A DNA stretch of 59,988 nucleotides, counting the filler, from Sanchytrium tribonematis (Eukaryota): the NCBI GenBank assembly GCA_018985235.1. It is 6 parts of 6 records of this genome, joined end to end, with 100 filler letters (N's around TTAATTAATTAA, not from the genome) between each part and the next. Parts side by side here need not be neighbours in the genome. Positions count along the whole stretch, not along the records: positions 1 to 29,507 come from JADGIG010000054.1; positions 29,608 to 35,643 come from JADGIG010000559.1; positions 35,744 to 41,741 come from JADGIG010000560.1; positions 41,842 to 47,828 come from JADGIG010000561.1; positions 47,929 to 53,914 come from JADGIG010000562.1; positions 54,015 to 59,988 come from JADGIG010000563.1. The stretch is one strand, 5' to 3'. Shown here piece after piece: positions 22-57,179 of the stretch. The notes under the pieces are model-generated. The model did no database searches, was not told the DNA's origin, and saw only the letters and a program-made list of their open reading frames with translations. Position 1 is the stretch's first letter; the number at the start of each line of letters is the position of its first letter. The position numbers and the translations under genes are program-made.

Positions 22-1693
22 ATGGAATCTTTAAGTCTTCAACTTGAATCTAATTTATATTCGCAGATCAATCAAAAGGTCAAAATTTTAATTAATGGTG
101 AGGGCCAAGCACATGTTTTGAATGCACAAAATCAAAATTTAAAGACCAAATTGCAATATTATCAGTCTTTAAGCAGAAAAATTGCATCAAAAAAAATTCA
201 TTTTTTCAAGCGCGAAAGTATTCAAGAAATTTCTAATACTAAAAGCATTCAAGAGTCTCTTTATACATTAAAAAAATTTCTTAGAAGAATGCAACAGAAA
301 AAAAGACATTCCAAACATATTGAAAGCATCTTATCAGAAAAAAATCGCTTTATTGAAATAGAAAGAAATATAATTATAGTTGGCCGAATTGATCATGCAC
401 AATCTGTCACATATAGCCATTTAAAATGCATAAAGTCGAGAATGCTGGAATTAGAGATTGAGCAAAAGAAGAATTTAAAAAAGGTATCAACGTCCCTAAT
501 AACAATTGAAAAATTGAATAATAACAAATTTATATTGGAGAAGGTTATCAAGTTTTATCAAAATACTGCATTGAACAACTCGTCCATAGAATCTCTTAAT
601 GGCAACCTTTTAAATTTGCTCAATTTTCAAAGCTTATTAAGAAATCTAGATACTTCTTACCGTTATATGGACAGGATTCATTACAATCATAAAGATGTAC
701 CATCTATTTCGACGCAGAAATTTCAATCCGCAATGCAAAAATCCTGCCTGCGGTTTGAAAATTTGGAAAAGAAGTCAGATTTATACTTAAATACTTTAAA
801 TTCTTTACAAAAGCAAAAAAATGATATGGGCTATGAAATAATGCTAAATGAGGGAAAAGCTCGAGAAGCACAGCTCAAGCTATCTGAAATCAAAGAATAT
901 TTGGTAAAACTCCCATCAATGGGTACAAGCAGGCAAAAAATCGAACTTCGGGGCTGGGAACATATAAAAAGTTTAATTGAAAATAGTACCAAATCAAGCG
1001 TGCCCATTATAGCAAAACTTTCTTGCAAAACAGCACTTGAAATTGATACTGAAAGAATTAAATCATTGCTGCACGCAATTGAAAGCCAAAAATGCAGACA
1101 TGACATAGATTCAATTAAATCTGCATTAACTGTTATCAAATCCGATTATTTAAAAAACAAGAAGCAATTTAAAGCTAATAGAAAACTGATGAGTAACTTA
1201 GAAAATCAACTACGAGATGCGAAATTGCAAATCGAGACTTTGGAATCGAAGAAAGTAAATTTTGAGAAAGTCTCAAATGAGGACAAAGATCGCCAGATTC
1301 GAGAGCTACAAGACCAATTGAATGTCACTCAAAAAGACCTGAAAAAATCCAAGAACAGTGTTAAATATTTAACAGAAAAGTGGAAAAATGTTTTAGACGC
1401 AGAGAACAAAAACCCTAAAGAAATCGGGAAATCGAAAGCGGAACTCGAAGCTACAAAGCTGAGGCAATCCCTCAAAGAAGCTCAGTCTCGAATTATCGAA
1501 CTCGACGCAGATTTAAAAAGGACAGTTCATGAAAGAAATAGCATAGGCGAGATGTTTAAGGAATTGGTACCTTAGATTTATTTAGAAGAAAAAAACAGTA
1601 GATGCTCAGATGTACTATATTCAAAAACAAGAACAAAATATTGACCCAAATCAAACAATTAATGAGATCAATGAAAACTGCAAAGTTCAATAA
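22..1693 (+). CDS. Long coiled-coil protein, function unknown (2 exons: 22-1566, 1586-1693; may be 5'-partial)
   Basis: K/E/Q/L-rich ORF; removing 19-nt intron 1567-1585 extends frame by KKKTVDAQ...CKVQ* to 1693. Confidence 0.65.
1567..1585 (+). other. 19-nt spliceosomal intron
   Basis: GTACCTTAGATTTATTTAG; removes in-frame TAG and restores an open frame. Confidence 0.75.
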
Positions 1694-2064
1694 AGTGACA
1701 ATTCTTTTTTACTTGTAATTAGTGCCAGATAATCATCCCATTCGTTACCAGCTACAACCAGATTTTTAAGTTCGATGAGGTTTCCAGCGATGGCAAATAG
1801 ATTTAAACTCTCGCCACTTCTAAAGGAAATTTCACCTAATTTGTCTGACGATTTAACCGGAAACTTCTTCGATTTTAATTTGAATGCTTTTTCAATGGAA
1901 GGATCTATTTTGAAAGTATTGCATAGATTTGAATCTAAAAATAACGCACAAACTTGATTTGGAAAAGCATATACATGTATTGGTCCCTGGCCATACTCAA
2001 CGAGATTTCCAGTCTTATTAATGGAAAACCGGTTGCAGTAATTTTTAACAAAAGGATTTCTCAT
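1687..2064 (-). CDS. Hypothetical protein (125 aa)
   Basis: ATG preceded by AGGAG motif; fills slot between genes. Confidence 0.55.
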   Translation of the reverse strand: MRNPFVKNYCNRFSINKTGNLVEYGQGPIHVYAFPNQVCALFLDSNLCNTFKIDPSIEKAFKLKSKKFPVKSSDKLGEISFRSGESLNLFAIAGNLIELKNLVVAGNEWDDYLALITSKKELSLY

Positions 2065-2201
2065 TTCTCCTGAATCCCCCGATCTTGAAAGTGTAAATCA
2101 CCCGAATAAAGAAATTCTAATTCAATAGGCAATTGCTCCTATGACGACTTTGCATTACCGAGTTTATATTAAGAATCTGCATGATTTCATCCCTTGTAAC
2201 A

Positions 2202-2432: not shown

Positions 2433-2437
2433 GTTTA

Positions 2438-2687: not shown

Positions 2688-4278
2688 ATGTTTCTTTACC
2701 TGCAAAATTTGGTCAACAGAATCTTTTTTTATTTATTTGCAATAGACAATCAATCAATGTATGAAAAACTGAAAGAAAGAGCCACAAATGCCACACAATA
2801 TAGAAATCTTGCAGTTTTGCAGTCCCAAAAATTTGCCCAGTGGAAAAAAATAGATGAATCACCAGACTATGATTACTCTTTAATACTTGACAGACACAAC
2901 AGCCTCTATACGGCTCGAAAGAATGGAAATTTATCAGACATAATGTTTCTGTTGCGAACTAGTTTAAATAGACATATCGGAAACATCCACAATCCATTAC
3001 TATATTCAGAATGCTATGGAACCAAGGATTTGATCAATTCATACATTGAGGAGGTAGCAACCTGTCTAGACTATATTGTAAATTCAAATTTGCCTCACAA
3101 CGTGAAGCAAGAATTTATAACAAATTGCCGCACGAGTTATGGAAGAACAGCTCTTCTACTGAGTGGAGGTGGCGCCCTTTCGCTCCATCATGTAGGAGTA
3201 ATCAAATCATTACACGAACACCATTGCTTATCAAGAATCATATCAGGGTCATCAGGTGGTTCGATCATTGCTGCTTATATTTGTATTCACAATGAAGAAG
3301 AATTTCAGGAGCTTTTGAGACCTGGGAAAATTGACTTGAATGTATTTGAAGAGAAGAATACCCCATTATATACAAAGTTGACGAGATTATTGGCAACGGG
3401 ATTTTTTTACGAAGCTTCTGAATTTGTGAGCACTTTACGGCGAAATTATGGCGAGGTAACTTTTCTTGAGGCTTATAACAAGACTCGCAGAATTTTGAAT
3501 ATTACTGTATCATCGAATACTAAATACGAAATGCCTTCGGTATTAAATTTTGCAACAGCTCCAAATGTTTTGATTTGGAGTGCTGTGGCTTGCAGTTGTG
3601 CTGTTCCAGGAATATTTACGTCTTTTTCTCTGATGAGCAAAGACAAAAACGGAAACACAGAACTTTGGACAAACTCTGATCACACTTTTATAGATGGGTC
3701 TGTGGACAATGATTTACCAATGCAAAGGATTTCTGAAATGTTCAATGTTAATCAATTTATTGTGGCTCAGGTGAATCCTCATGTTGTTCCATTTCTTTCG
3801 AAATCTATTGTTAAAACCAGATTCAGAACAATGTGTGAAGGCATAATGGGTCTAATATTTGAGGAAATCAAGCTCAGAGTCCGGCAGATGCAAGAACTAA
3901 CACCGCTGCCCTCTCTTATTCGAAAAATATTCTCAATATCTGATCAAACGTACACTGGTGATATCACTCTCTGTCCAAATATACCCTTTGTGGACTATTT
4001 AAAAATGCTTACTAATCCCTCGGCAGAGTAATTTTGACTTATTTAGTTTTTTGTTAAATTGCGTATTGAGAGGAGAGGAGAGTACATGGGCCCAAATACC
4101 TTACATACAAAATTTGCTCAAAATTGAGATTAAATTAGATGAGTTGCTACAGGAGTTGAGACAGCAAGTCTTCACAACACCGAAAGAAATACCCTCTAGT
4201 TTGAGTTCTTTAAGAACAACTAGGCAGATTAGTTATTCAAATCCAAACTTATCAGTATTCACTACTACAAAATCTTAA
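2688..4278 (+). CDS. Patatin-domain triacylglycerol lipase, Tgl3/4/5 family (2 exons: 2688-4027, 4047-4278)
   Basis: YGRTALLLSGGG, GSSGG, IDGS motifs; 19-nt intron joins the two ORFs in frame. Confidence 0.93.
4028..4046 (+). other. 19-nt spliceosomal intron
   Basis: GTAATTTTGACTTATTTAG; GA|T joins in frame with ORF 4051-4278. Confidence 0.9.
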
Positions 4279-11389: not shown

Positions 11390-12479
11390 ATGGAATACAC
11401 CTTGACTAGCTTAAAAAACGAATTCGGTGATCAATGGAAAAGTGCATTAATGGATATGCTCGAAGATCCACATCTGGAGTTGCTGAAGATACAATTGCAA
11501 CTAGTTGAAGAAACAATTCAACCAACAGGATTAAAATCTCCTACATTTGCCGCGACAGCTGATCCACAGGACAAAATAGTTATTTTTGAGAAGAGCAAGG
11601 ACCACAAGGCCCCTTCTAGATGGCAACACAAAAGTCATCATTTTGTCTATCTTGGTTCTCAGGCTAAAAAAGGCTCCGTTAAATCACATGGCTATAGTAG
11701 ACATGATTCAAAGAGAGAGGCAGCAGAGACTATTGCAGAAGCACTCGAACATTATGATGAAAAGCCGTTAAAGTATTCTAGCAATGTAAAAGTGAATGTA
11801 GTAGAAGCAGTTGAAAGTGAGGAAAAGCCCCGGAATGCTGAAGAAAGCAGTAAGTTCGGCCTGGGCTCGAAATACATTCAAGTTAATATGGAGGCATTTG
11901 ACAACTCAGACGCTTCCGGTTATATATTTGACACAGACTTAAAATTAGAAGATCTTAAATTGTCTGAGAATGATGAGCTAGTGAATGGATTTACTCATTC
12001 TAAATACGAGAAGTTCCACGATCGCTGTTTGCTCGATCGTTCCGAATATGGCAGGGACTCAGAGGTTATGAATATGCTATACTTATTTTGGAGCGACTAC
12101 TTGAAAGACCATTTTAACTTTAAAATGTACCGAGAATTCCGGGACTTATCTAATGATGACGCTGAAAATCATTACAGGTATCTTCTTTTAACTTAGAATT
12201 GGTATGGAACAGCTCTTTTCTTTTTATTTACATGGATTGTTGATAAAATTTAGACCAAAGGTGTTTCACGACTTTCAGACCAATGCCCTTCGTGATCATC
12301 GACGTGGATACGATGACGGATTTCATGCGTTCGCCATGTTTGTTCAAAACAAGCCCAAGTCACTAAATTTAACTTTACACCCTGATATCCAACACTATAT
12401 CAAAAAAACTTTGGGAAAGTCTAAAAAGCATTCATTAAATGTCAAAAATGAACAAGAATTCCCACCGTTAACTGCATAG
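11390..12479 (+). CDS. La-related protein 1-like, DM15 domain (2 exons: 11390-12177, 12197-12479)
   Basis: [56 protein letters not shown] matches DM15 repeats across the intron. Confidence 0.8.
12178..12196 (+). other. 19-nt spliceosomal intron
   Basis: GTATCTTCTTTTAACTTAG; joins the DM15 motif in frame. Confidence 0.9.
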
Positions 12480-13778: not shown

Positions 13779-16041
13779 CTATGGCTCCAATTTTCTCTCC
13801 AGCTCTTCTGTTTCAAAATTTTTAATGTGCTCGACAGTCCAGATGGTGTTTCCAAGTTGTGCTTTTTGATCAAATGGTTGCGCCATTGTTCTAAAAAATT
13901 TTCTGGCCAATGTAATTCCCATGTCAGAAGATAAATTGATTGTGCCTTCATTGAATCCAGCATTTATCCATGCAGGAAGTTTGTTCCGCTTATCATTCCT
14001 CGCATATCTTTTGTCAGCAAAAACCATAAGACCGTAGTCAGTTTTACCTCTTAAAACTCTTCCAGCGGATTGAGCGGCGTGTCTCAGAGCATCAAAACTT
14101 AAAAAGTCATTTTCTCTGATTTGATAATTCTCTCTCAGAAATTCCAATCTGGCCTTCAATATTCTTGATTCAGTGTACTGATAAGGGATGCCAAAAAGTA
14201 TCACTGCTCGACCATAATTGTGATCAAAATCAATTCCCTCACTCACCTTTCCTCTTGCAACAGACAAAAGTATTGCACCTCTACCATTGTTACAAGCCGT
14301 TCGATAGTTCTCTAACGCCAAGCTCGTTTCCGCCGCATCTGGAGTTTCAATAAAGATTAATTTATGCTTCTACATTATTTAAAAATACCAACGCACTATT
14401 TAAAATTCCCATTTGAGACCAATCAGAAATAATAGACTCCATGTAAAGATAAGAAGGGAAAAAGCAAACCATTCCATCAGGAACGGTCTTGGCCATGTCG
14501 ATCAACAAATTTCCAAAATTCCTGACCACACTTGGATCATTTCTAATTTCATATCTTGAAGATATTGCAACTTGATCAGAGCCTCTCGAAATTACCATAG
14601 GACAAAAAGAGTTTCTTATCTGTGTCATAGGGTAAGCTTGGCTAAGAATTGGTGTAAATTGCAAAATCTTGGGATACATGTCCAATGGAGAAAGTGTTCC
14701 TGAGGTTATAATGACATTTCTAAATTTGGTAAAAACTGGTTTGATAGCAATTGATGCATCAAGGCAGCTGAGATGAAGCATCGGGTCAGGTATATCGGCT
14801 TGATCGTTCTCAAACGGTTCGAAGATTATACTAAATCCGTTGAGATACGTCGAAACGATTGTAGCAAATGTTGCTACACGCATTAGACTCGAATACTCAT
14901 CAATATCTTGAAGTTCAAGAGTACGAATAAGAGATTGCAAACGCTCAGCCGTAAATTGAAGAGGCTTCCGTTCAATCAAACAAATTTCCCTAACATGTGC
15001 CAAGAATGATAGAGGTGCTTCGACAACTACATGTTGTACCCTCATTCGTGTCTTCAAATATTCCACGAATCTCTTTAAAAATTGAACAAAGTGATCAGCT
15101 TGTCTTATATTACCAGGAACCGCCTCCGCCAAAATATCCTCAGGAAGAATAGGATTAGCCATAATTGCATCACTTTCCCTAGCGTCTGCCGCAGCCTGTA
15201 AGCCTTGAACCAATTTTTCATACTCTTTTTTCAATTTTGCTTCATCGGCTTGCTTGAGCGTTTTGACTTTCTCTTGTAGTGTGATTAGAGATTTAGCGCT
15301 ATTTTCAAGAGTAGAGCGGCCAATATCGACTGACATCGACTCGATGCAAACAGAATCAATATTGTGGCTTTCATCCATAATGACAATACTTTCTTTCGGT
15401 AAGTCTTTGCTGACTAATTCAGAAATTTTTGGATCTAAAAGGTAATGGTAACTATAAACCACCACATTCGCCATAGAAATGAGTCTTCTTGAGTAATAGT
15501 AAGGGCAATAGCCAATCTGCTTAGAGTATGATTTCAATTCATCTAAACTATAAACGCCTTCTAATGATTTAAATTCTAATTCCAACTTTTCATAATACGA
15601 ACATACATCTATACTTTGATCGCTTTTATGTTTGTCTCTCATGAACGAGGCTGTTAAATTTCTACATCTGGCATCAACGGCCTTTCCTTTCAATTTAGAT
15701 ACAATTGGGTGAACACAAAGATTTTTTCGGCTAGTTAACCCAATTCCTAGAAATGGAGTATTTGAATAACCCATTTGGTATAGTCTTTTCAGCTCTAGCA
15801 GAGTTTTCTCCATTTCATGAACAGTTCTTGAGCAATAAATTATTCGTCTATTGTGTTTCAATCCGTATGCCATGCAAACAGACAGTAGGCTGATTGTTTT
15901 GCCTGTTCCAGAGGGCATTTCTAATAATCCGTGGCCTTGACGGTCCAATACTCTCTTGATGTCTCTCATATATTTATATTGCTCAGGATATAAATATTCA
16001 TATGGAAAATAAACTTCTAATTCATCTAGAAAAAATTTCAT
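13779..16041 (-). CDS. RAD3: TFIIH helicase XPD/Rad3 (2 exons: 16041-14389, 14369-13779)
   Basis: [38 protein letters not shown]; splicing restores [14 protein letters not shown]. Confidence 0.97.
14370..14388 (-). other. 19-nt spliceosomal intron
   Basis: GTATTTTTAAATAATGTAG; restores conserved XPD sequence. Confidence 0.95.
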
Positions 16042-23792: not shown

Positions 23793-26145
23793 ATGGGTCG
23801 TAAGCCGAAGAAAGTAATTCAAAAAGTACAGAGCGAAAGCAGTGGCTCTGGCGAAGAAGTACCAGTTAATAATTTTAAAGCATTAAATACAAACGATAAA
23901 TCATCAACCTCTAGCGAATCTGACGCAAGGCAAAATACATTTGCTGCTTTGAATGCGTCAAATGATAGCGAATCAGAAAGTGAGTCAGAGAGTTCTTCTG
24001 AAAGTAGCTCTTCAGAAGAAATTTCTTCCGATGAAAGTATCGATAAGCCTAAAAATTTATTTAGTGCATTAAAAGACAGTGAAGAAAGCTCAGAATCAAC
24101 GGAATCATCAGATGATTCCAGCTCAAATGACGAATCAACTTCAGAATCCAGCACAGAGAGCTCTTCATCCTCTTCCTCTGATTCTAGTAGTTCCTCTGGA
24201 TTTTTCTCGGATTCAAGCGAGGAGCTGGATGTTAGTAGATGGGTTGTGATGGAAGAATCATCTGAAGATGAGGGAACCATATCGAAGGAGAAAAAAGATA
24301 CTGCTCATATCATACGGGATAAATGGCTTAGAAAGAAGGATGAAGTGCGAACTGATGAAATGGAAGACGATAGCGGGGAGGAATTTTCGGGAAGGTTAAG
24401 ATGGATGAAAAAAGACTATCGAGAGAAATTTTTAAGAGAACATGGTTTAGGCGATTTAATCAAGTCGAAAGGTGGAAGTAAGAAAAAAAGAGAACGCAAA
24501 GAAGCGGGACAAAAGAAAAAAGAAGTTAAATTCAATGAAACAATCGAAGAAAAAAAGCTCAGCGCTGTTTCTAATGAAAATGTTCTGGAAAAGCTCTCTG
24601 AACTTTTGCTAAATAGAAATCGTGTTACTAATAGCGAATACTTGAATTCACTTGAGGAAATGCTCAAATTTGCAAATAGGCCTCACGAAAAACTAAAATT
24701 ACTTTTAAATATTGTAAATGCCAAATTTGACCATGCTGGTGCATTACCAGTCACGGATATGGAAGAAAATATGGCCAATTCATCGTTCCAGTTTTGGAAA
24801 GAAGCAAGGATTCATATCAATTGTATTTTTGATATTTTAGAAGACAATCGAGATATAATAATCCATGAAATGTATGAGCCATTACCAGAAGAGGATTCTT
24901 TATTGGATGAAAACGTTTCTTACGAAAATGAAAAGCGCCTAAAAGGTAGCATCATCGGAATCGTTGAACGAATTGACGAAGAATTTACAAAATTGCTTCA
25001 AGGTATCGATCAGTCAGACATTTCTAGCTACCAAATGATTTATGGCGACGAATTCTACATCATTGAGCTATTGCTCCGAGCCGTAACTGTCTTCAACCGC
25101 CAGCAAGATCTACTTAAGAGCAAAGATAAGACTGGTTATTGTAGACTCTCCATAAGACTGATAGAAAAGCTATACTATAGACCTGCTAAAATTAATCAGG
25201 AAATATTTAAAGTCCTAATTTCATCGCACAAGTCTAAATGGACTTTTGAAGAAGACCCTTTCAAACTGATAGTCAAAGAATGCAAATTTTTGGTGGAACA
25301 AGATGATAAGAAGATTTCTGCAAGGGCCTGTCTTTGTTTGTTTTATCATTTGGCTGTCAATGATGATTTTGAGAATTCTTACAAATATTTAACGCATTTT
25401 TACTATTCTGAATATTTGACTGACATTAACATATTCGTTTTGTACAACAGGACTTTATGCCAAGTCGCTCTTTGTGCTTTTAGACATGGAAAATACGAGA
25501 TCGTAACCGAATTACTTGAAGGATTTGTTCAAAGCGCAAAAATTAAGGAATTGCTTGGTCAAACTTCAAATTCATTTTCCGAATCGCATGTCGAAAGTGA
25601 TGAATTTGAATCTACAGAAAAAAGAAAAGCGTTGCCATGGCATTTACATATTCCGGATGACGTAATCGAATCTGTGTATTTGTTAAGCCATATGATTTTA
25701 GACATTCCATTGCTCGCGATGACTCACTTTGAGACTCCTGCTACCTATTTCACTGATCTTTACAATGAATTTATTAAAAATTTAGTCAATTCTCCACCAG
25801 AAACTAATAAGGATTATGTCTTTTTAGTCACGCAAAAACTTTTACAAGGCAATTGGAAAGATGCATTTGAGATTGCAAAAACACTGCCAATTTGGGGCTT
25901 CACAGAAGATAAATCTCAAATGGAATTGATCAGGTATATCTATTTCATTTAGCGCATTTAAAGAGTCGGCTTTATTAGGATTTCTACAGTATGGCCAAAA
26001 AACCTTTACTAAAATTCCACTGTCATATTTGGAATCGAAATTCCAATTAAACGGAGGTCTTGTTTATCAAATTGTAGAAAATCTCATTCTAGATCACCAA
26101 ATCATTTTCAAACTAGACATTGAAAGCAAGTTATTAGTTGAATGA
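23793..26145 (+). CDS. NIP1: eIF3 subunit c (2 exons: 23793-25933, 25953-26145)
   Basis: LYNRTLCQVALCAFRHG, KELLGQ, LPWHLHI, PPETNKD; second exon supplies the PCI end; S/E/D-rich N-terminus. Confidence 0.88.
25934..25952 (+). other. 19-nt spliceosomal intron
   Basis: GTATATCTATTTCATTTAG; opens a 64-codon exon (AFKESALLGFL...). Confidence 0.88.
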
Positions 26146-26241
26146 CATAGATAATCAACTTGGTAATAAATCATTACTATTCCCGATCCTTTGCTTAATT
26201 TGGCAGAGAAATTAACATACTGTAAATTACCGCGATTTTAT

Positions 26242-26876: not shown

Positions 26877-28074
26877 ATGACAGATAACGATGTTCAATTT
26901 GATAGCAACTGGAGTGAAGTAGTCACTAAATTCGATGATATGGAACTGAAAGATGACCTTTTAAGAGGCATTTTTGGATATGGTTTTGAAAGACCATCTG
27001 CAATTCAACAGCGTGCCATTATGCCTGTCATTAGGGGACATGATGTAATTGCTCAAGCACAATCAGGTACTGGTAAAACAGGAACATTTACAATCTCTAT
27101 TCTTCAAAGAATAAACGAGAATGTCAATACTACGCAAGCATTAGTTTTGGCACCTACTCGTGAGTTAGCAACACAAATTGCTGCTGTTATGAAAGAATTG
27201 GGGCAACACACAAAATGTACGATGCATGTTTGTATTGGAGGTAGAAATTCGCGTGACGATATTGACATTCTTTCTAAAGGGTGCCATATTGTTGTTGGAA
27301 CACCTGGACGTGTTTATGATATGATTAGTAAAGGTGTACTAAGCACTGAACATCTACAATTATTTGTATTGGATGAAGCTGATGAAATGTTGTCAAGAGG
27401 ATTTAAAGATCAAATCTACAATATTTTCCAGACTCTTCCAGGTACTGTTCAAGTTGTATTATTAAGTGCAACCCTTCCGGATGAAGCAAAAGAAATGACC
27501 TCTAAATTTATGAGGGATCCTGTTAATATATTTGTTAAACGGGAAGAATTGACATTGGAAGGTATTAAGCAATATTATGTCGATTTAGGTCAAGAGGAAT
27601 TTAAATTGGAGACTCTTACCGATTTGTATAACAGCATTAGTGTTACGCAGTGTGTTATATTCTGTAATACTCGTAATAAGGTTAATTGGCTAGCTGAACA
27701 GCTTAAACAGCGCGATTTTGTAGTTTCTTTCATGCATGGAGACATGACTCAAGAAGAGAGAACTGTCATTATGCAAGAATTTAGAACTGGTTCTTCTAGA
27801 GTTCTCATCACCACTGACCTTTTAGCTCGTGGTATTGATGTTCAGCAAATCAGTTTGGTCATTAATTATGACATCCCACAATCCTTGGAAAATTATTTGC
27901 ATCGGTAAATTTCATTTATTTAGAATTGGTAGATCAGGACGTTTTGGAAGAAAAGGAACTGCAATCAACTTTATCACCACTGAAGAAAGCCCACAATTAG
28001 AGGCTATCGAGAAGCACTACAACACCAAGATTGAAGAAATGCCAATGGATATTGCTTCTCTTTTAAGCCAATAA
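26877..28074 (+). CDS. TIF1: eIF4A DEAD-box helicase (2 exons: 26877-27904, 27924-28074)
   Basis: [18 protein letters not shown]; splicing restores [13 protein letters not shown]. Confidence 0.97.
27905..27923 (+). other. 19-nt spliceosomal intron
   Basis: GTAAATTTCATTTATTTAG; interrupts helicase motif VI. Confidence 0.97.
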
Positions 28075-33388: not shown

Positions 33389-33391
33389 ACT

Positions 33392-36851: not shown

Positions 36852-37398
36852 TCACAATATGATGCAGCTACTGCTCTCTTTCTCTTCCATTAAATCTAAT
36901 AATGACTGAAATATAATATCTTTGTTAAAATAAGGTACCAATATTCTTATTTAGTTTCGCAGAACTTTCAATCGCAATGCACTGTTTATCTCCAAATTGA
37001 GAAGCCAACTGTTTAGCGTCTTCAAAAGTGACTTGTCTGTTCTGTAAATCGCACTTATTTCCCACAATAACAATTGGAATACTCTCTAATCCAGTCATTT
37101 GAAGTATTTTATCACGAATAACTTGTAACATTTTAAAGGATTGTTGGGAAGTGATTGAATAAACGAGTATAACGCCATGAATATTTGCAAATTGGGTGTT
37201 GATTAGACTATATTCATCAATGCCAGCAGTGTCATGAATTTCTAATTGGAAAGATTTTGATTTGTATTTGATTAATTTAGAATATGACGCGTTAATGGTG
37301 GGTTGATAGTTATCACTGAATACCCCATCCACATATTGGATAGTTAGACTAGATTTGCCAACTGAAGATGATCCTAAAATGGCTATTCTTCGAATCAT
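36852..37398 (-). CDS. RHB1: Rheb GTPase (2 exons: 37398-36939, 36919-36852)
   Basis: GSSSVGKSSL, YQPTI, DTAGIDEYS, GNKCDL, ESSAK; splicing yields the CaaX box SSCIIL*. Confidence 0.9.
36920..36938 (-). other. 19-nt spliceosomal intron (AAG acceptor)
   Basis: GTACCTTATTTTAACAAAG; restores the C-terminal helix and CaaX box. Confidence 0.92.
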
Positions 37399-40793: not shown

Positions 40794-41561
40794 TTATTCC
40801 ATTGTTCTTAAGAATACGCGATAGATGGAATTTTTAATAGTTTCCTTGTCAACACGTGACTCGTCTGACAATTTCTTCATTCTACTAAACAATTGATTTT
40901 TAGATTTCAATCTCTTATAAGTCAATTCCCGATCCTTTTTATAGACGAGGCAATTATATTTCCTGAACAACAACTTGTATTGACTCCAACTTTCATTAGA
41001 AGGAACTTTCAAATTAAATTCAGCAGCTAATTCTTGTAATTGTGATTTCTCTTCATCTGTTAGTGGCTTTGTGGGTTCCTTTTTGTCAGAATCATTGGAT
41101 TTCTTTGTTTTCTTGGCTCTCTTTTTCTTGGATTTCTTTGTCACGGTTTCAAATGTTTTATCATAAAAATCACAATTCTCGCATTCTTGACCAATTAAGC
41201 CCCAGCATTCCTTATAATTTGATTGTACAACATCACAAACATCTATAAAATCAGGATTAGAAGACGCTATAATGTATACATCACATTCAACATCCCCCAT
41301 TATAGATTTCAAGATATCCACTCCAATTTTCATATCTGTTGCATTCTTACCCACGTCTTTCTCAACCAGTACAAGTTCGGCATCTAGAAATATAGGGAAT
41401 TGATCACATTGTTGCGAAGTTAAATAAACAATTGTCTTTTTGATTTCAACGCCATCTTTCTCCATTTCTACTCGTTTCTTTAAATACAAATCAATATTTT
41501 TAGAAGTAATGGGCTGAGTGTCATAATCAATGTAGAGATGCGCCGTTTTTGCATTTGTCAT
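40794..41561 (-). CDS. Degenerate NYN (PIN-fold) domain protein with Lys-rich linker and unknown C-terminal module
   Basis: LYIDYDT, GKNATDMKIGVDI, IIASSNPDF. Confidence 0.65.
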   Translation of the reverse strand: MTNAKTAHLYIDYDTQPITSKNIDLYLKKRVEMEKDGVEIKKTIVYLTSQQCDQFPIFLDAELVLVEKDVGKNATDMKIGVDILKSIMGDVECDVYIIASSNPDFIDVCDVVQSNYKECWGLIGQECENCDFYDKTFETVTKKSKKKRAKKTKKSNDSDKKEPTKPLTDEEKSQLQELAAEFNLKVPSNESWSQYKLLFRKYNCLVYKKDRELTYKRLKSKNQLFSRMKKLSDESRVDKETIKNSIYRVFLRTME

Positions 41562-41741
41562 TTCACAAATTGACACAGTGGGGCATTTGCAATTTATTTT
41601 ATGTCGTGATTGGCTGCCAATTAATTCGCCATTCAATTTAACCAGACACTACCAGGCATAGTCATGAACAACCAAGATATCGCCATTAAAAGATTCAAAG
41701 ATAGATTCAAAAATAGACCCACAAACATCACAAACCCAACC

Positions 41742-42645: not shown

Positions 42646-44554
42646 TTATTGTGAACGATTCATAATACGCTTAATTTCGGCAGAATCGACTGAAAAATTG
42701 TCCCAGTCGTCAGAGGATATATTAGTAGCTTCTTCAGCTGTGCGTTTACTCGGTATCTTTGTTGTAAAAAGATCAAGTGTAGTCTGATTTTTATCTTCTA
42801 AAGCTATTCTCGAGGGATCCTTGATTTCTTTCATATATGCGCCAGCAAATTCTGCGTCTACTCTTGATTTCACCCCATCCAAGCTTTGAGTTACAATGTT
42901 TTGTTTCTTATTTAACAATTTCCATAACTGAGTGTCAATTGTTCCTTTTGCAATCAAAACAATCGATTCAACTTGACCGTCTTGCCCAATCCTATGGCAG
43001 CGGTCCTCAGCTTGTTCCATGTCACTGAATGACCAAGCTATTTCTCCAAATACCACATGAGAAGCTTTTGTCATAGTCAATCCTGTATTAGCGGCTTTTA
43101 TCGAGAGAAGTGCGATAGGAATATCCGGATTTCTTTGAAATGAATCAACTAGTTGCTGACGAGTGTCTGGACGAGTCTCACCGTCGATTAATATGTATTG
43201 GGTATCAAGATATTGACAAAAAGACTCAATTTCTTTCAACATCTTCATTAAATTAAATTACCATCTGATGGTGGCAGAAAAATAGTATTCCGTTGACATT
43301 TGAAGTGACACCTTCCACTGGCTTTTCGTTTATATTGTACTTGCACTCCAATAATTCCTGGATGTAATCCTTGACAAATTGGATTTTAGCTTGGCAAGTA
43401 GCACGGTACAGATCCAACCACAAGCTACTGATATCGCTATTTTTAGAACCCATTGCTTCCCTTAGTACGTCATCATCATTTTGCTTTTTACTACTTTTTT
43501 TGAGTCTATCAAATAAAGAAGTACACCATTTTAAATCTTTCTCGTTTATCTGGCGAACTACACAGGTTCTATTTTTATCTGCAAGCTGAAGTATATCCTG
43601 CTTTTTACGCCTGATCATCATATTTTGCATAAGAAAATTGAGCTCATCTATATTCTTAGTTCCATCAAATTTTTGGATTGTAATTCCATTTACCATGAAT
43701 TGCCTTACATTTGAATATCTTGACCCAAATGCCATTTTATTTTTAAAAAAATCTGGCCTGCAAATTTTCAATTGAGTAAAAAGTTCCTCAATTTTTCCTG
43801 TAATCGGTGTGCCACTAATTAATATTGAATATTCACAATGATTTAAAATTTTACTCAGTCCCTTGTACCTGATAGTCATCTCATTTTTAACACTATGTGC
43901 TTCGTCTAGTACTCCAAAAGCGAATTTTTTTTCAAATTCCTTTGCATTTTTTGCTGCTAAATCTACAGTTACAAGAATTATTTTTTTCATGCCTATTTTT
44001 ATATTATGCAGAACCGGAATAATGTCTTTTCCTTTCCTAATTTTAACGATATTATGTCCACCAATATTGGTCCATTTTAATAATTCATTTTCCCAATTCT
44101 CAACTAAAGTACTTGGAGTTGCAATCATCACAGGGTAAGCATCAACTGCACCAATACATGCGAATGTCTGTATTGTTTTACCTAAGCCCATATCGTCACT
44201 CAACATCATTTTCTTAGATATCTTTATACACTTGCAACCAAGCCATTGGTAATTTCGCAACGTTGAAATTTTATCTGCTTTAAGAAGCTTGTTCTCTGCT
44301 TTGATGTCCTCCATTTCACTGATAGTTAGGGATTTGGGAAGTGCGGTGCATTTTTCTATATAGTTTGGTAAAGGCGTAAACTTCAGATTTGACTTTTTAA
44401 GTTTCTGATACAAATTCATTGGCATTTTGTACAATTTTTTCCCAGAATCATACTTTGCATATTGCTTTATTACATTTTCTTTTTGCTTATTCATCAAATC
44501 AATAATAATTGTAAACTCTCCCTCATTCTGCGTAATCCTTAAATTTAAATCCAT
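42646..44554 (-). CDS. SNF2-family annealing helicase, SMARCAL1/ZRANB3-like (2 exons: 44554-43262, 43242-42646)
   Basis: DDMGLGKT, DEAH, ISGTP, FCHHQM|MLK, LLSIKAANTGLT, QAEDRCHRIGQ. Confidence 0.9.
43243..43261 (-). other. 19-nt spliceosomal intron (AAG acceptor)
   Basis: GTAATTTAATTTAATGAAG; joins the two helicase lobes in frame. Confidence 0.9.
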
Positions 44555-44775: not shown

Positions 44776-45611
44776 ATGTTGATTTACATTGCGCTGGTTC
44801 TCGCAGTCTCTACCTTGAAGAAACGATCTAGCAAAGTGGCAGGTAATCAGATTCGCAACTTGAAGAAGCGAGTAACACCAACGCCAGTGCCAGATTATGT
44901 ACATGTAATTTACCCGAGTGAAATCAAAAACTACCAAGTTGAACAGTGTCATGTTCCTAGCGTCTTTCCAACTCCATTGTGCCAGAAAACTTACAACGCA
45001 GAATTACTTGGTAAGAATGTGATTCCGCAACAACAAACACTCTCTCCATATTCAGGCCAAGCCACTTTCTGCGTCTTTAAGGCCGATAAGTGGATCAAAG
45101 TAAAGAAAGGAAAGACAATTGAATGGGTAAAGGAAACAATTTTTTCCAAAATTACCTATAAAGTTGACATTCCTGATATTAAGAATGTAATTGAGATTAG
45201 ATTGCACATCAGCGAAGATGGAAAGCGAGGCTTACCAGTTGCAAATTTAATTCCTCCAAAGGTATATACTAATTAATGAAGGCCCCAGGCAATACGAAAA
45301 CTAGTTATTTGAAATCTGGAACAATTCTACAAAAGAATTTATTCCAATATGACACAAAAAGATATTATAGCTTAAGGGACGTTTCTCGAGCTATCGAAAG
45401 AGGCATTGCATACGTCAGTGTCAACACAGATGACGGTTTTGATGAAGAAAATACCAAACCTGGAAACTACATCATGGGAGAATTACGGGGCCAGATCAAC
45501 AGAGATTGTGCCTCAAAATGCGAATGTGGAATCAAGCCTAATGCTGTTAATTCAATCGGCGCAGCAATGACGCTGAAAATTGGGCTAAGCGATTTATTCA
45601 GAGGCGCATAA
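44776..45611 (+). CDS. Secreted CHRD-domain protein (2 exons: 44776-45261, 45282-45611)
   Basis: Signal peptide; IRLHISEDGKRGLPVANL; GIAYVSVNTDDG...GELRGQI. Confidence 0.75.
45262..45281 (+). other. 20-nt spliceosomal intron
   Basis: GTATATACTAATTAATGAAG; joins the CHRD halves in frame. Confidence 0.82.
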
Positions 45612-47928: not shown

Positions 47929-50650
47929 CAAGTAAATGGAGCCATTTACAAAATTGAAAATCATACAATTTACTGTAAATATAATGATACGGAGTACCAA
48001 TATCCTCTAAATACTAGTATTAAAGATCTCAAAGTAGCGATATTTGAGCATGATATTCACCACATGGACAATACTCAAGTTTTGTTAGCGCAATCTTTAA
48101 AGGAAAATAACTACTATTTTACAAGCAAACTGTATTTTGAACTTGGGCAATATTCCTTGGGCTATGCATACGCTGATGCCCATAAAGATCCTCACGTTGC
48201 AAGCATTTTAAAAAATGAGTTCACACCTGTTGTTAATGACTTGATAAATAAGAATGAAATTGATAAAGCCGTAGAGATTTGCAAGAAATATATGCAATTC
48301 GAGTTGCTTTTTCACATTGTGCAAAAACTTAAGCTCAATATTTCGGAAATTCTAAAATCAATGCCTGGCAATGTGTTATTTTACATTGATTATTTACTGT
48401 CAATAGATCATCAATATTTGTATTTACTAAATTCATATCCTTACCAACAATATCAATGCATTAAAAAATACAGCATTATGAATAAGCCTGTAGTTTTAAA
48501 TTGTGCAGAGCAATTAGAAAAACATTCATTTATAAGTGAAGCTGCTGATCTTTATATTCTGCTTAACAGTCCTGATATTGCTAATAATTTATATATTAAA
48601 TATAAATGCTACAAGGAGTTGATTAAAAAGGATGGCCCCAAAAATTATGACTATAAATTGGAATATATACAATCTTTGATGGAGAAAAAAGAATATAGAA
48701 AAGCGCTAGATATTGCAATTTCTATAGATGATTACAAGGCATTTGAATGTGCTTTGCAACTGAACCAATTTGATGTTGTGGAAAAAATTATTACAAAAAC
48801 TGGAGATGCAAATTTAACACTCAAATATGCTTCATATCTTTACAGCAATGGTCTTTACCAAAAAAGTGCATTTATGTATTCGAAATGTAATGTAGAAAAA
48901 GCGATTCAAATTTATTGCGAGCTAAACTTATTTGACAAAGCAGTCGGCATTAGTCAAAATGTAGATTATTATAAATCAATTCTAAATGAATTGCTTGTTA
49001 AAAAGGAATTTGGGACTTACATGGACCTTCATGAAAAATTGCAAACTTTAGAACAAGCTTATGATGAATTATTTGAAAAGAAATTGTACACAGAACTATT
49101 ACAGTATTGCTCGAATAAGCAGAAATATTGTTTAAAAATTATTGAGACTCTAGAAAATGCGCATGACATGGAATACTACTTCATTTTAATGAATGATTAT
49201 AAGGGAATTATAATGAAGTATTTGCAGCTAGGGCTTTTTGAGGATGCCATGAGACTTGCTAAATACAATCAATATAAAAATCAAGTGGCTTATGTGTGGG
49301 CAAAGAAAGGAACTTTACAAAAGCAATTTTCTAAAGCCGCTTTGGAATACGCGATAGATATTAAAGATTTTCAATTAGCTATGCAGCTACTTCCTCAAAA
49401 CTTAGAATTGGAAAAAATAGTTTATTTAAAATACGCGATATATTTGGCAGATGAAAATGATGATACTTGCGTTACTTATTTTGAAAAGGCAAAAGAGTAT
49501 AAATTATTATTAGCGTTTTATTTGAGACAAAAACAGTATGATCAAGCAGTAGAACTCATGAATAGAGAAAAATTGCAAGACTTGGTAAAAGTAGAGCTGA
49601 ATAATTTAATTAAAATGAAAGAATTCAGTTTTGCGGAACAACTCAGTTTAAAGAGTAATTTTATGGTGGACGCTTTAAATGCATTTATGAGCAATAAGCA
49701 TTATGATTTTGGAATGGAATTTTGTGCCAAGTATGTACCGCATTTGTTACAAGAGTACAAACAAAAATACAACTATAATATCGTGCATTTATCTCCAAAA
49801 TTATCGAAAAGACCAAGTGTCGTAATGGAGGGAAGAAGAATGAGCGAAGAGGATTTAAAATCTACCGTGGTAAATGCAATTAAAACGGAATCTATTGGTC
49901 CATTGCTGACAAAATGGAAGCAGAGCAAGTTCACTTCAGAGCATATGAAAATGATACTATCACATGTAATAGAAAACAAAAAGTCAGAGCTGTATGGGCA
50001 ACTTGTTAAATTTTACAGAGATTATCCAATATTGGAGAATCTGTTTCAAATTGTGTTGTTACTAAATAATCTAAAAGTTGTAGAAGAATTCAATGACAAA
50101 GAATTGGTGTATAAAATATCAATCAGTCTACTAAGATACGCAGATATATTGGGGTATGAAATGATCTATTACAAAGCTGGCTTGGCAAGTCAAGTATATC
50201 TTTTTAATTTAGCAATTCAACGAATTTTATGCATTTAAGTTACTAAATTATTATCTGGACATTTGCGATGCATTTGAAGAAAAGGATCTCAAAGTAGTGG
50301 CCACATTGGACTTGGGATTACCGCATATTCGTAAGCTACCTAATCATTTGGAAACTACAACTTCCCAACGGCAGGAAATCAGAGATTATGTGCTTGCAAA
50401 ATCAGTAAGTCCAAATGTCCTTAAGCCTAAGCCAACTTTATTTTGCCAATGCAAAAAGCCATTGCATTTGCACCAACTTATTTGCTCTTGTTCAATAGAA
50501 TATGCAATGTGCTTAATAACTGGAAATCCAGTGGTGGATCAAACTAAATGCTCATCGTGTGAATATCCAGCGAACAAATCTGACTGGAATAAGTTCATCA
50601 GTCATGTACAAGAATGTCCACTTTGTCGCTCACCAGAAACATTTAAATAA
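47929..50650 (+). CDS. IFT172: Divergent IFT172-like protein, 5'-truncated (exons to 50193, then 50213-50650)
   Basis: TPR-like repeats; VAYVWAK, VYLKYAIYLADE, SISLLRYADI...YYKAG, LNYYLDICDAFEE, CLITGNPV..C..C...ANKSDWNKF...CPLC. Confidence 0.78.
50194..50212 (+). other. 19-nt spliceosomal intron
   Basis: GTATATCTTTTTAATTTAG; in frame with ORF 50297-50650. Confidence 0.9.
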
Positions 50651-53914: not shown

Positions 53915-54014
53915 NNNNNNNNNNNNNNNNNNNNNNNNNNNNNNNNNNNNNNNNNNNNTTAATTAATTAANNNNNNNNNNNNNNNNNNNNNNNNNNNNNN
54001 NNNNNNNNNNNNNN
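53915..54014. other. Artificial contig linker
   Basis: N44-TTAATTAATTAA-N44. Confidence 0.98.
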
Positions 54015-54280
54015 TACGAGAAAAGCAAACTGAAATCAAGCCACCTACTCCAGCTACAAATGCAAATATTTTGGCAAAATTAGACGAATATTTCCAATTT
54101 AAGTAAAAGTCTAGCTACATAGTAATTTTATTACGTGTTATAACTAAAATGCTAGTTTTCTGAATATTATTAAAAGAATTTCTTTTTTTACTTCCCTTTG
54201 CGTTATAGTTTTGCTTTTAGAATGGCGGGATTTGTTAATTTAATAGTCCAAAATAAATTAAAATACCCCTTTGTTTCTTG

Positions 54281-57179
54281 ATGCAACGACCAAATCGACC
54301 TTCTGATCAATTTAAGCCTAGACCTCAAGCACACTCAAGACCTGTACAACGAGCTGCCAGCGGCGCACAGCCTCAGCCAAGGCCCTTAGGGTTTGATAAT
54401 TCAAGAAGGCCTCCATCTAGCAACTTTGCTTCGAATGGAGGCTATCGTCCAACAGTGCAAAATGCCCCAGCTTTGCCAAATAATGCTCCTACTGGAACTC
54501 CACCGTTTACAAATCGTTCTGGAATACAGAGTTTTAGCAATCCTGTCGCTCGCCCTCAAGTTAATAATAATCCAGGAAGTCAGTTTTCAAGTACAAATGC
54601 ATCGCCATATTACCCAGGGACTCAGCAACAGCTCCCTTCTCCAATCAATCCTGTTAATCAGTCTCGTAAAATTGATCCAACTCAGGTACCATCTCCTTTA
54701 ATTGTGGAAAGTTTAGATAGTAGAGATGAATTTATATCTACTTTAGATCCAAAACAGCAACATTCTATTAACCCCGTTAATACAGACAGGTCTAATACTA
54801 TTCCATTGACTACTACCATTTGCCATATGTCAGATCAAGGAAATTGCATCCCTCGATTTATGAGAAGCACAACAAATATTCCAATCAGTGATGAATTTCG
54901 AAATGTCTGCAATTTGCCTTTTGGCGTCGTTGTCCATCCTTTGGTCGACTCTGAATATGATGAGGACGTTCCTTATGTGGATACGACTAAGTTTGGTGGA
55001 CCAATACGTTGCTCAAACTGCAGAGCATACATCTGTCCGAGAATGACTTTTGTTAACGGAGGTAAAGCATTTGTTTGTGGATTTTGCTTATCCCAAACAG
55101 AAACCCCTACACCTTATTTTTGTAATTTGGATATGAATCATGTTCGAATGGACATAGCAGAGCGGCCGGAACTTTGGAAAGGAACTGTAGATTTATCAGT
55201 TAGCGACGAATATATCGGTGATAGTGCTCCCTTGCCCTTAGCTATACTTTTTGCAATAGATACCAGTGTTCATTCTTGTAAAAATGGTCTTTTAGGTGCA
55301 GTTTGTGCAACACTTATTAGGGTTCTATATGGTTCCAAAGCTATAAATGTATCTGAAATTAATGACGCAGAGGAGGTATATGTAGAAGGGATGATGAACG
55401 GAGGGATTGATCCAGAGCTTATAGATGGACAAGAAGGAGATGGAATTGTTGGTAACATGAATTTCCAACTACCACCCGGTGCTAAAATTGGTTTTTTAAC
55501 TTTTGATTCTAATGTGACCTTCTATGCTCCTGCTTCTGGTAAATTGAGTGCATTTGTTGTGTCAGATACGTTAGATGTATTTAATCCAACGTCAGACATC
55601 TGGTTGGATCCAGGTAAAGATCAGAAGCAAATACTGGATTTTTTGAATAGCTTACCAAAATTATTCAGTTTTGATAATGGGTCCTCCTCTTTCTCGTGTG
55701 TTGCCGCAGCCATCCAAGCGGCATCTTCTGCACTTTATGAAAGAGAAAAGGCCGGAGGTAAGATTGTTTTGTTTCATACAATAATTCCCAATTCTGGCCC
55801 GGGTTGCTTGAAAACTAGAGACCACCAAGGAAAGTTGGACTCTGATAAAAAAAATCCATTACTTCTACCTCCTGATGACGGGTTTTGGCAAAATCTAGCG
55901 AAAGAAGTAGTTAAAAGAAATGTTGTATTTGATTTGTTTTCCTTCCCATCGGCTTATATTGACCTAGCTACTCTTGGTCATGTGTCGTCAAAAACTGGGG
56001 GAGAAACTAACTTTTTCCCGGGATTCAATCCTTCGGACATTTTTTGGCTTTTTAGCGTTCTCCATCGAAATTTAACGAGACCTTTTGGCTACCAAGGATT
56101 TATTCGTGTTAGAGCTAGCAAGGGAATTTCAGTACGAAATTACATGGGTTCAATCCATACGGATGATGATGTGGAAGCTAGGGTTTGTGGTATTGACTCA
56201 GACAAAAGCATCGCCGTTCTTTTGTCACATTCTTCTAAGTTGGATGACAAGCTTCCAGTCTACATTCAATGTGCCTTATTGTATACCTCGGCAAATGGGA
56301 CTCGGAAAGTCAGGGTACAAACTTTAGCTGTCAATGTTGAGTCATCTGCCTCTTCGTTATTTAAGCATTCGGACTGTGACACTTCTATATCTGTAATGGC
56401 CAAATTTTCCGTATATAATGTGTTTAACTCCTCCTTGAAAGAAGTAAGGGAGCAAGTGACTGATAAAGCCGCTCAATGTCTAGCGTCATATCGTAAAAAT
56501 TGTGCTCCAAGCTCTCCTCCGGGACAATTGATTTTGCCAGAAAGTTTGAAATTGTTGCCTCTTTATGCCCTAAATATTTTAAAATCAAAGTCATTTTCAA
56601 CTTCCAATGTCCCAATAGATTTTCGTGTCGAAAATATGAGATTTATGCTTTCAGCAAGTACAGAGATCCTGATTCCTTATTTATACCCGCATGTTTATAG
56701 AATACATGATATGGAGAGCAAGGTTGGTAATTTTGATCAAAAAGGGCACCTTATTTTGCCGCAAAGAATCCGATCTTCCATGGAAAATTTTGATCAAAAC
56801 GGAGCCTATTTAATAGAAAATGGTCAAAGAATTTTTTTATGGGTAGGTAGAAATATTAATACGGGAATTTTAAGTCAACTTATTGGCTTATCTAGCATTG
56901 ATCAAATTGATCCAATGCACCATTTTGTTAAAAAAACAAACTCTCTGTCCAACAAACAACTCCGTACTTTAATCGGGTCTATATATCGAAAATATAGAAA
57001 ATATATGCCGATCTATATTGTAAGAAGTCAAGTTGACCCACTTGAAAATGAAGTGAAAAACTTGATGTATGAAGACAAATCCTTTGATGGGCCTTCTTAT
57101 GTTGATTTTTTAATCAGTCTCCACAGAATAGTGCAGCAAGAAGTACATTTCGTTAATTTAGTTAAAAGGAAGTAGCTAA
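54281..57179 (+). CDS. SEC24: COPII Sec24C/D-like (Sfb3-type) subunit; probable last exon 57162-57179
   Basis: DQGNCIPRFMRST, zinc finger RCSNCRAY..CGFC, GQLILPESLKLLPLY, SYVDFL..LH. Confidence 0.93.
57143..57161 (+). other. 19-nt spliceosomal intron (predicted)
   Basis: GTACATTTCGTTAATTTAG matches the consensus; gives QQE|LKGSS*. Confidence 0.7.

What the first reader, a model, noticed from the sequence alone, without database searches (positions are those of the whole stretch)
1567..57161. Near-uniform 19-nt spliceosomal introns with a fixed-position branch A
Seen: 11 introns at 1567-1585, 4028-4046, 12178-12196, 14370-14388(-), 25934-25952, 27905-27923, 36920-36938(-), 43243-43261(-), 50194-50212 and 57143-57161 (all 19 nt) and 45262-45281 (20 nt). 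All begin GTA and have T at -8, A at -6 and a pyrimidine at -5, ending TAG or AAG (GTA-N8/9-TNAYNWAG). Removal restores invariant motifs (eIF4[21 protein letters not shown], Rheb CaaX). Known: introns this short occur in chlorarachniophyte nucleomorphs and heterotrich ciliates such as Stentor, which also have a branch A six nt from the 3' end; fungal introns are normally longer. Inference: a fungal-type lineage with a ruler-like minimal spliceosome (13 nt before the branch A). Gene finders with a minimum intron length of 20 nt or more would miss most of these.
Basis: partly seen in the sequence, partly recalled or inferred. Interest (0 to 1): 0.88.

Follow-up and report, generated by a model that had tools for sequence, protein, structure and literature searches.

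The report
19-base introns in sanchytrid fungi
In an alga-parasitising fungus of the sanchytrid group, eleven genes are each interrupted near their end by a 19-20-base segment that is likely a spliceosomal intron, shorter than the fungal introns in the papers searched and left unspliced in the public protein set.

Summary
Real. All 11 segments are at the stated places (ten of 19 nt, one of 20 nt). Each starts where a long reading frame breaks. The window is from a sanchytrid fungus: eIF4A is 86% identical to Amoeboradix gromovi, clade support 100/100. Removing 19 nt restores eIF4A, XPD, IFT172, LARP1 and Rheb; intronless sanchytrid XPD genes match the joined protein without a gap. Relatives' open reading frames also run into GT at the same eIF4A, Sec24 and IFT172 sites, with inferred lengths of 19-22 nt and again A at -6. 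So branch-to-AG spacing is the fixed part; the 13-nt 5' 'ruler' is only nearly fixed. New here: all 11 lie in the last 40% of their gene. Splicing, the branch point and a 'minimal' spliceosome are inferred; there is no transcript evidence. Comparable introns are known in heterotrich ciliates, mikrocytids and nucleomorphs. No paper found reports them for sanchytrids. This scan earlier noted 26-30-nt Rozella introns, not these.

The parts
1567..1585 (+). 19-nt intron candidate, phase 0, in an unidentified coiled-coil gene (5' end cut by the window edge)
   Evidence: Motif; 522 open codons upstream; unspliced tail 2 aa, spliced 35 aa. No homologue test.
4028..4046 (+). 19-nt intron candidate, phase 2, in a patatin/DUF3336 lipase (2688-4275)
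   Evidence: 449 codons upstream; tail 1 aa against 77 aa spliced; Pfam for exon 1. Exon 2 has no Pfam hit.
12178..12196 (+). 19-nt intron, phase 2, in LARP1 (11390-12476)
   Evidence: LARP1_HEAT profile positions 10-78 on the first ORF (last 4 matched residues are read-through) and 75-144 on the second: continuous across the junction.
14370..14388 (-). 19-nt intron, phase 0, in XPD/Rad3 (16041-13782)
   Evidence: Best of all stop-free deletions of 1-60 nt against 5 homologues; A. gromovi P0131 and unnamed P0130 are intronless here and colinear with the joined protein.
25934..25952 (+). 19-nt intron, phase 2, in eIF3c (23793-26142)
   Evidence: Exon 1 matches eIF3c up to yeast residue 702; exon 2 supplies PCI profile 30-81. 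Exon 2 alone gave no eIF3c hit in PDB.
27905..27923 (+). 19-nt intron, phase 2, in eIF4A motif VI (26877-28071)
   Evidence: Top deletions are 19 nt and this is the best GT-AG one; four sanchytrid-type relatives and a non-sanchytrid locus L001 break at the same site.
36920..36938 (-). 19-nt intron, phase 1, in Rheb (37398-36855)
   Evidence: Exon 1 is Rheb to residue about 154; removal adds the last helix and a CIIL CaaX end.
43243..43261 (-). 19-nt intron, phase 0, in a SNF2-family helicase, SMARCAL1-like by recall (44554-42649)
   Evidence: SNF2 domain on exon 1, Helicase_C on exon 2; removal joins them in frame.
45262..45281 (+). 20-nt intron candidate, phase 0, in an unidentified protein (44776-45608)
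   Evidence: 167 codons upstream; tail 4 aa against 109 aa spliced. No Pfam hit at E<=1.
50194..50212 (+). 19-nt intron, phase 0, in IFT172 (47929-50647, 5' end cut at a piece boundary)
   Evidence: Joined protein aligns across the site with full-length IFT172-type proteins; score 143.1 against 70.5 unspliced; unnamed relative P0249 ends AAK|VA* at the same site.
57143..57161 (+). 19-nt intron candidate, phase 0, five codons before the stop of Sec24 (54281-57176)
   Evidence: Homology cannot decide (102.6 against 102.1). Relatives P0303 and P0304 read QQE|V at the same site with tails that admit 19- and 20-nt introns of the same pattern.

Best explanation
Eleven 19-20-base GT-AG segments break the reading frames of genes in a sanchytrid fungus, and they are likely introns removed by the major (U2-type) spliceosome, with the A six bases from the end predicted to be the branch point. 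Shown: the segments, their consensus GTAnnT...TnAYnWAG, the frame breaks, the restoration of conserved proteins, and the lineage. Inferred: GUA and U+6 are read by U1/U6 although G+5 is gone; U2 pairs loosely with a degenerate UUAAY version of the fungal CURAY branch motif; the acceptor AG is set by a fixed two-base gap after that motif, with no polypyrimidine tract; the lariat loop would be 14-15 nt with a 5-nt tail. At least three introns (eIF4A, Sec24, IFT172) are inferred to be inherited positions that shrank towards a working minimum during genome compaction, while most other introns, and all 5'-proximal ones in this window, were lost.
For: Length spike at 19 nt at ORF ends with no length prior: 10 at 19, 1 at 20, at most 3 elsewhere in 12-120. 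Unselected T at +6 in 11 of 11 against 10 of 41 chance matches. Homologues demand a net 19-nt removal in eIF4A and XPD and a +1 frame change of about that size in IFT172; LARP1 profile continuity; Rheb CaaX. Intronless XPD of A. gromovi and of an unnamed relative is colinear with the joined protein. Four sanchytrid-type eIF4A ORFs read into G-TAY at the same site; back-translation forces A at -6 and Y at -5 for 19 nt (P0005), 22 nt (P0003) and 20 nt (P0121, where 22 of 25 exon-2 residues fit only at length 20). A non-sanchytrid fungus-like locus L001 has a 26-nt GT-AG segment at that site. No second, full-length sanchytrid-type eIF4A appears among the 120 best hits, so an essential gene needs the removal. 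Contigs of run X1 carry 6 of 6 segments checked unchanged and show no joined form (X1 may be the source, so this speaks only against a local assembly slip). The relative's annotation lists core spliceosome proteins. Same branch geometry in Stentor, Blepharisma and Yarrowia.
Against: No transcript, lariat or snRNA was seen, so excision and the branch point are inferred. Four of 11 (1567, 4028, 45262, 57143) have no decisive homologue test; for Sec24 spliced and unspliced score alike. For IFT172 a 28-nt GC-AG cut and several non-canonical 19-nt cuts score higher than the proposed one. Relatives' intron lengths come from back-translated protein tails, not DNA, and two assume that the stop codon is TAG. 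A. gromovi eIF4A fits only 16 nt (with the motif broken) or a longer intron. The XPD intron is absent from two sister sanchytrids, so not every position is shared. The sample is 60 kb.
Confidence: 0.9

Rival explanations
1. They are true introns but mostly retained, as in microsporidia: a small spliced fraction supplies the protein, and some of the weaker cases (Sec24, 1567, 45262) are rarely or never spliced.
For: In Encephalitozoon cuniculi 30 of 37 introns of 22-76 nt were spliced in under half of transcripts (PMC3629993 passages); Mikrocytos 16-nt introns were spliced at 63% (PMC10245619 section 7). Sec24 is nearly complete without splicing.
Against: eIF4A, eIF3c, XPD and Rheb lose essential parts when unspliced. 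The motif is as strong in Sec24 as elsewhere (leave-one-out 20.4 bits, the highest), and relatives keep a compatible pattern there. This rival is compatible with the best explanation and differs only in efficiency.
Confidence: 0.25
2. Assembly or amplification artefacts, or decayed genes with frameshifting insertions.
For: The assembly is fragmented, and one other gene in the window has a frameshift with no GT-AG explanation.
Against: Eleven insertions of 19-20 nt sharing one motif; unchanged in separately built contigs at 6 of 6 sites checked; same sites broken in other sanchytrids and in L001; downstream exons remain conserved.
Confidence: 0.02
3. Non-spliceosomal removal or recoding: an IRE1/tRNA-ligase-type cut, or ribosomal bypass or +1 frameshifting over the segment.
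For: Ten of 11 lengths are 3n+1; IRE1-type introns of about 20-26 nt exist in fungi (recalled, no call).
Against: All have GT-AG ends and a branch-like A; one is 3n+2 and relatives give 19, 20 and 22; homologues leave no room for six extra residues; the sites coincide with GT-AG intron positions in other fungi.
Confidence: 0.03
4. Recent mass insertion of a tiny introner or transposon footprint created the introns.
For: Uniform length; the XPD intron is missing in two sister sanchytrids, which could be a gain.
Against: Internal positions differ between copies; eIF4A, Sec24 and IFT172 sites are shared with relatives, eIF4A also with a non-sanchytrid. Terminal repeats and target duplications were not searched by a dedicated call.
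Confidence: 0.05

Closest known systems
Heterotrich ciliate tiny introns (Stentor coeruleus, Blepharisma undulans; PMC9505925 section 5 and passages, PMC13685798 passages)
   Same: GUA start, AU-rich body, putative branch A six bases from the end whatever the length (position 10 of 15, 11 of 16), mostly one intron per gene, about a fifth of genes.
   Different: 15-16 nt and mostly 3n there, 19-20 nt and frame-breaking here; Stentor introns are 5'-biased, these 3'-biased (the heterotrich Fabrea salina is 3'-enriched); unrelated lineage; confirmed by RNA there, not here.
Chlorarachniophyte nucleomorph introns, 18-21 nt, and Mikrocytos introns, 16-17 nt (PMC10245619 section 7)
   Same: Same narrow size class in a compacted genome; Mikrocytos introns also sit in gene-expression and DNA-repair genes.
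   Different: Nucleomorphs are intron-rich (over 800 in about 300 genes); here about 0.2 per kb. Mikrocytos has a strongly reduced spliceosome; untested here.
Yarrowia lipolytica fixed branch-to-AG spacing (PMC2483917 passages)
   Same: Fungal; no polypyrimidine tract; two bases between branch motif and AG, which puts the branch A at -6.
   Different: Yarrowia introns are long (median 204 nt) with a strict ACTAAC; here the motif is degenerate and the intron 19 nt.
Microsporidian and Rozella short introns (PMC3629993 and PMC6349667 passages; scan notes e1-7125510, e1-7126381)
   Same: Short GT-AG introns in reduced parasitic holomycotans; E. cuniculi branch hexamer TAAYTT resembles the TAATTTAG ends here.
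   Different: 22-76 nt in E. cuniculi (37 introns, many 5'-biased), about 26-30 nt in Rozella; sanchytrids are true fungi on a separate branch.
Myxobolid and dicyemid introns (PMC13644364, parts 1-2 of 3 of the text)
   Same: Convergent shortening in parasitic opisthokonts; 5' signal reduced to GTa.
   Different: Median 22-27 nt; the conserved A's move away from the AG as length grows, whereas here A stays at -6.

Membership tests
U2-type spliceosomal introns | GT-AG ends | tested here: met
   11 of 11.
U2-type spliceosomal introns | Removal restores the conserved reading frame | tested here: met
   Met against homologues or profiles for eIF4A, XPD, LARP1, IFT172, Rheb, eIF3c and the SNF2 helicase; undecided for 4 of 11.
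U2-type spliceosomal introns | Branch adenosine in a U2-pairing motif, forming a lariat | tested here: inconclusive
   A at -6 in T-n-A-Y in 11 of 11 and forced in 4 of the relatives' candidates; no lariat or U2 sequence seen.
U2-type spliceosomal introns | Segment absent from mature mRNA | not testable with these tools
   No transcript data could be laid on the window.
U2-type spliceosomal introns | Spliceosome (snRNAs, Prp8, Brr2, SF3b) encoded in the genome | tested here: inconclusive
   No genome held; no snRNA in the window. The A. gromovi annotation lists BRR2, SF3B1, a second SF3b subunit and a U2AF subunit (11 of 23 places read, file cut when stored).
U12-type introns | Strict 5' consensus RTATCCTT (recalled) | tested here: not met
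   0 of 11 have it.
Heterotrich/mikrocytid-type fixed-length tiny introns | Genome-wide length confined to 1-4 values | tested here: inconclusive
   19-20 nt in 60 kb; 19-22 nt inferred across relatives; whole genome not available.
Introner elements | Near-identical copies at lineage-specific positions | tested here: not met
   Copies differ internally; three positions are shared with relatives.
Sanchytriomycota (host lineage) | Proteins group with Amoeboradix gromovi | tested here: met
   eIF4A 86% and XPD 76% to named A. gromovi entries, against at most 70% and 61% to other fungi; eIF4A tree clade 100/100 on a long stem (25 of the fetched rows). Species not assigned.

The most novel reading that the evidence does not exclude
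A whole fungal phylum splices the shortest introns known in opisthokonts (19-22 nt). It keeps only one per gene, next to the poly(A) site, because such small introns can be removed efficiently only with help from 3'-end processing, and its spliceosome fixes the acceptor by distance from the branch A and has an altered U1/U6 reading of a donor without G+5.
Probability: 0.3. Interest if true: 0.88.

Novelty: new variant of a known kind. Interest (0 to 1): 0.73.

Why it matters
It would add a true fungus to the few lineages that reached the lower size limit of spliceosomal introns, below the 22-nt minimum quoted for E. cuniculi and the 22-nt median of myxobolids. That gives an opisthokont comparison for how a 14-nt lariat loop fits the active site. 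It also has a practical cost: the public sanchytrid proteins were called as plain ORFs, so eIF4A, eIF3c, XPD, Rheb and others are truncated or split in EukProt, and gene-content or gene-loss claims for this phylum need re-checking. If the window is typical (11 in 59.5 kb), a 10-11-Mb genome would hold on the order of 2,000 such introns (extrapolation). The 3' bias is the reverse of the usual pattern in intron-poor genomes and is testable genome-wide.

Tried and rejected
Whole-genome scan: no genome held. Sequencing runs: no RNA holder listed. Rfam: nothing at gathering score or E<=1 in the window; no tRNA. A U1-like stretch at 40742-40646(-) was rejected: no Rfam U1 match at E<=10 and folding z -1.1. 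A coding-model search for GY-AG introns of 12-150 nt without motif was uninformative; it mostly joined neighbouring genes. A position-weight scan of lengths 14-60 found no twelfth intron at a frame break among the top 60 rows, and motif counts at 18 and 21 nt are at chance, so no hidden in-frame class with this motif; introns of another pattern, or in-frame ones without it, are not excluded. The single metagenome scan required a GAA codon and a GTA donor and returned one non-sanchytrid locus, so no DNA of a sanchytrid relative was obtained. PDB search with eIF3c exon 2 gave only chance hits. The protein atlas gave no answer. The idea that 47929-50647 is an IFT-A protein contradicting the published loss of IFT-A was rejected: it is IFT172, and IFT172 is in the published A. 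gromovi table. Sec24 homology test was neutral. The internal-position control (0 in 1000) is biased low because it samples open frames only. Contamination by a ciliate, nucleomorph or mikrocytid was rejected by protein identity and tree.
Full report
Observation. All 11 segments are present as written. The motif GTA...TNAYNWAG occurs 11 times at 19 nt (expected 1.84, maximum 7 in 100 simulations), 5 times at 20 nt (expected 2.19) and at chance level at the other lengths from 14 to 40. Each listed segment follows 155-962 open codons and leaves an unspliced tail of 1-14 residues; ten other motif matches examined do not close a long frame in this way. With no length prior, GTA...A(-6)...AG starting in the last 15 codons of the 43 ORFs of 150 codons or more gives 10 at 19 nt, 1 at 20 nt and at most 3 at any other length up to 120. 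The window is six assembly pieces joined by spacers, 34.3% G+C, 88% covered by ORFs of 100 codons or more.

Whose DNA. eIF4A exon 1 is 84-88% identical to three clusters of close relatives, one named Amoeboradix gromovi (86%), and at most 70% to other fungi. XPD is 76% to A. gromovi and 61% to the next fungi. Sec24 is 56% to a EukProt entry whose organism was not shown and 42% to named fungi. In a tree of 25 chosen eIF4A rows the window, A. gromovi and three unnamed sequences form a clade with 100/100 support on a long stem. The window is therefore a sanchytrid other than A. gromovi; the species is not assigned. Sanchytrids are algal parasites with 10.5-11.2-Mb assemblies of 34.6-36.3% G+C (PMC8371127 passages).

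Do the segments behave as introns? For eIF4A (28 homologues of 30 taken) seven of the eight top-scoring deletions are 19 nt and the proposed one is the best GT-AG cut. For XPD (5 of 30 homologues matched the anchor motif) it is the best of all cuts. A. gromovi XPD and an unnamed relative have no intron there and run colinear with the joined protein. The LARP1 profile continues from about position 74 to 75 across the junction. Rheb gains its last helix and a CIIL end. The SNF2 helicase regains its Helicase_C domain and eIF3c the end of its PCI domain. The gene at 47929-50647 is IFT172: the proposed cut scores 143.1 against 70.5 unspliced, though a 28-nt GC-AG cut and non-canonical 19-nt cuts score higher, so homology fixes the frame change but not the exact ends. 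Sec24 is neutral by homology, and 1567, 4028 and 45262 have no homologue test. Contigs of run X1, which may be the source of the window, carry the 6 segments checked with no difference and no joined form.

Relatives. Of 126 stored eIF4A-type proteins with the motif, 112 continue HR-IGR; all four sanchytrid-type relatives instead read HR-Y, that is into G-TAY. Back-translation of their tails allows 19 nt for P0005 and 22 nt for P0003 if the stop is TAG, with T-8, A-6 and Y-5 forced by the amino acids. P0121 reads through, and only length 20 fits (22 of 25 exon-2 residues, next best 12), again with A-6 forced. A. gromovi eIF4A admits AG only at 16 nt, with T-8 and Y-5 broken, or beyond its stop; 21 nt is the shortest length that fits the full pattern (inference). 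Sec24 relatives P0303 and P0304 read QQE-V and admit 19 and 20 nt. IFT172 relative P0249 ends AAK-VA at the same site. The one metagenome hit, L001, 68% identical to the window and outside the sanchytrid clade by identity, has a 26-nt GT-AG segment at the eIF4A site. These are inferences from proteins except L001. They point to inherited intron positions, a length range of about 19-22 nt in the group, and a constant branch-to-AG distance.

Mechanism. Most likely the major spliceosome. The 3' half reads T-T-A/T-A-Y-n-W-A-G, a degenerate form of the WCTRAYN branch consensus followed by two bases and AG. That is the spacing of Yarrowia (PMC2483917 passages) and puts the A where Stentor has it in both its 15- and 16-nt introns (PMC9505925 section 5). 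The lariat loop would be 14-15 nt, larger than Stentor's 10-11. The donor keeps GUA and U+6 but not G+5; U6 ACAGA pairs with this region and stayed invariant across 240 yeasts and outgroups despite donor changes (PMC10581693 passages), whereas Entamoeba changed U1 (10.1101/2022.06.08.495308, abstract only), so either outcome is possible here. No snRNA lies in the window. The A. gromovi annotation lists BRR2, SF3B1, a second SF3b subunit, a U2AF subunit and cactin (supplementary file 4 of PMC8371127, 11 of 23 'splic' places, file cut when stored, file 2 unreadable). A spliceosome is thus present in the group; whether it is minimal is open.

Each gene has one intron, and all 11 lie in the last 40% of the coding sequence, 15-594 nt from the stop (mean 0.82; P about 4e-5 against uniform placement, a post-hoc test; two genes are cut at their 5' end, which understates the bias). 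The window-wide motif scans would have shown 5' copies and did not. Intron-poor genomes usually show a 5' bias; the streamlined heterotrich Fabrea salina is a reported exception with preferential 5' loss (PMC13685798 passages). The cause here is unexplained.

What is in print. The sanchytrid genome paper called proteins with TransDecoder on assembled contigs (section 18), and 'intron' occurs in its main text only in a reference title; the same holds for PMC10459994. Of 12 unspliced window fragments looked up, 11 are verbatim in EukProt; the miss is the 5'-cut IFT172 piece. Searches listed no paper on sanchytrid introns; subscription journals and most supplements were not searched. Short introns found in print: E. 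cuniculi 22-76 nt (PMC3629993 passages; PMC6349667 passages), myxobolids median 22-27 nt (PMC13644364, two of three parts), Cryptococcus mostly 40-100 nt with a small, poorly spliced group of 20-40 nt (PMC11913375 passages), Mikrocytos 16-17 nt and nucleomorphs 18-21 nt (PMC10245619 section 7). The fungal survey PMC8476143 (passages) lists no sanchytrid clade in the table rows seen. This scan's own notes hold no finding with the word sanchytrid and none for this genome or look-alikes.

Verdict. It is a new variant of a known kind: a further independent arrival at near-minimal intron size, this time in a true fungus, with a 3' bias and with direct consequences for the public proteins of the phylum. 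Interest 0.73.

Noticed in passing
window 1567-57161: All 11 introns lie in the last 40% of their coding sequence, one per gene; phases 0/1/2 = 6/1/4.
   Followed up: partly
window 22610-21785 (-): A methyltransferase gene has a frameshift near 22455-22480 beside a 12-nt tandem duplication; no GT-AG or GC-AG cut repairs it. X1 contigs show the same letters and a second variant nearby.
   Followed up: partly
window 40742-40646 (-): The only ACTTACCT of the window, with an Sm-like site about 90 nt on; Rfam and folding give no support for U1.
   Followed up: yes
window 47929-50647 (+): A divergent IFT172 with a terminal zinc finger on the second exon; an unnamed relative of 1161 aa stops at the same intron site.
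   Followed up: yes
window 40291-40629 (-): Looks like a partial copy of the C-terminus of the neighbouring NYN-domain gene 40797-41648 (by eye).
   Followed up: no
window 32912-35317: A Pox_A22-like resolvase hit (E 3.6e-4, below the curated cut-off) next to a 641-codon ORF with a weak integrase hit (E 0.018); possibly a mobile or virus-derived block.
   Followed up: no
window 26143-26876 and 35910-36438: Two gaps of 500-700 nt without a clear gene in an otherwise very dense sequence; no Rfam match.
   Followed up: partly
L001 1420-1445: A 26-nt GT-AG segment at the same eIF4A site in an unidentified fungus-like metagenome contig (cluster of P0008): another short-intron lineage.
   Followed up: partly
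P0022 (Paraphysoderma sedebokerense eIF4A): The public model lacks five residues of motif VI at this same site, suggesting a mis-called intron there.
   Followed up: no
window 46050-47828 (-): A BK-type calcium-activated potassium channel fragment.
   Followed up: no
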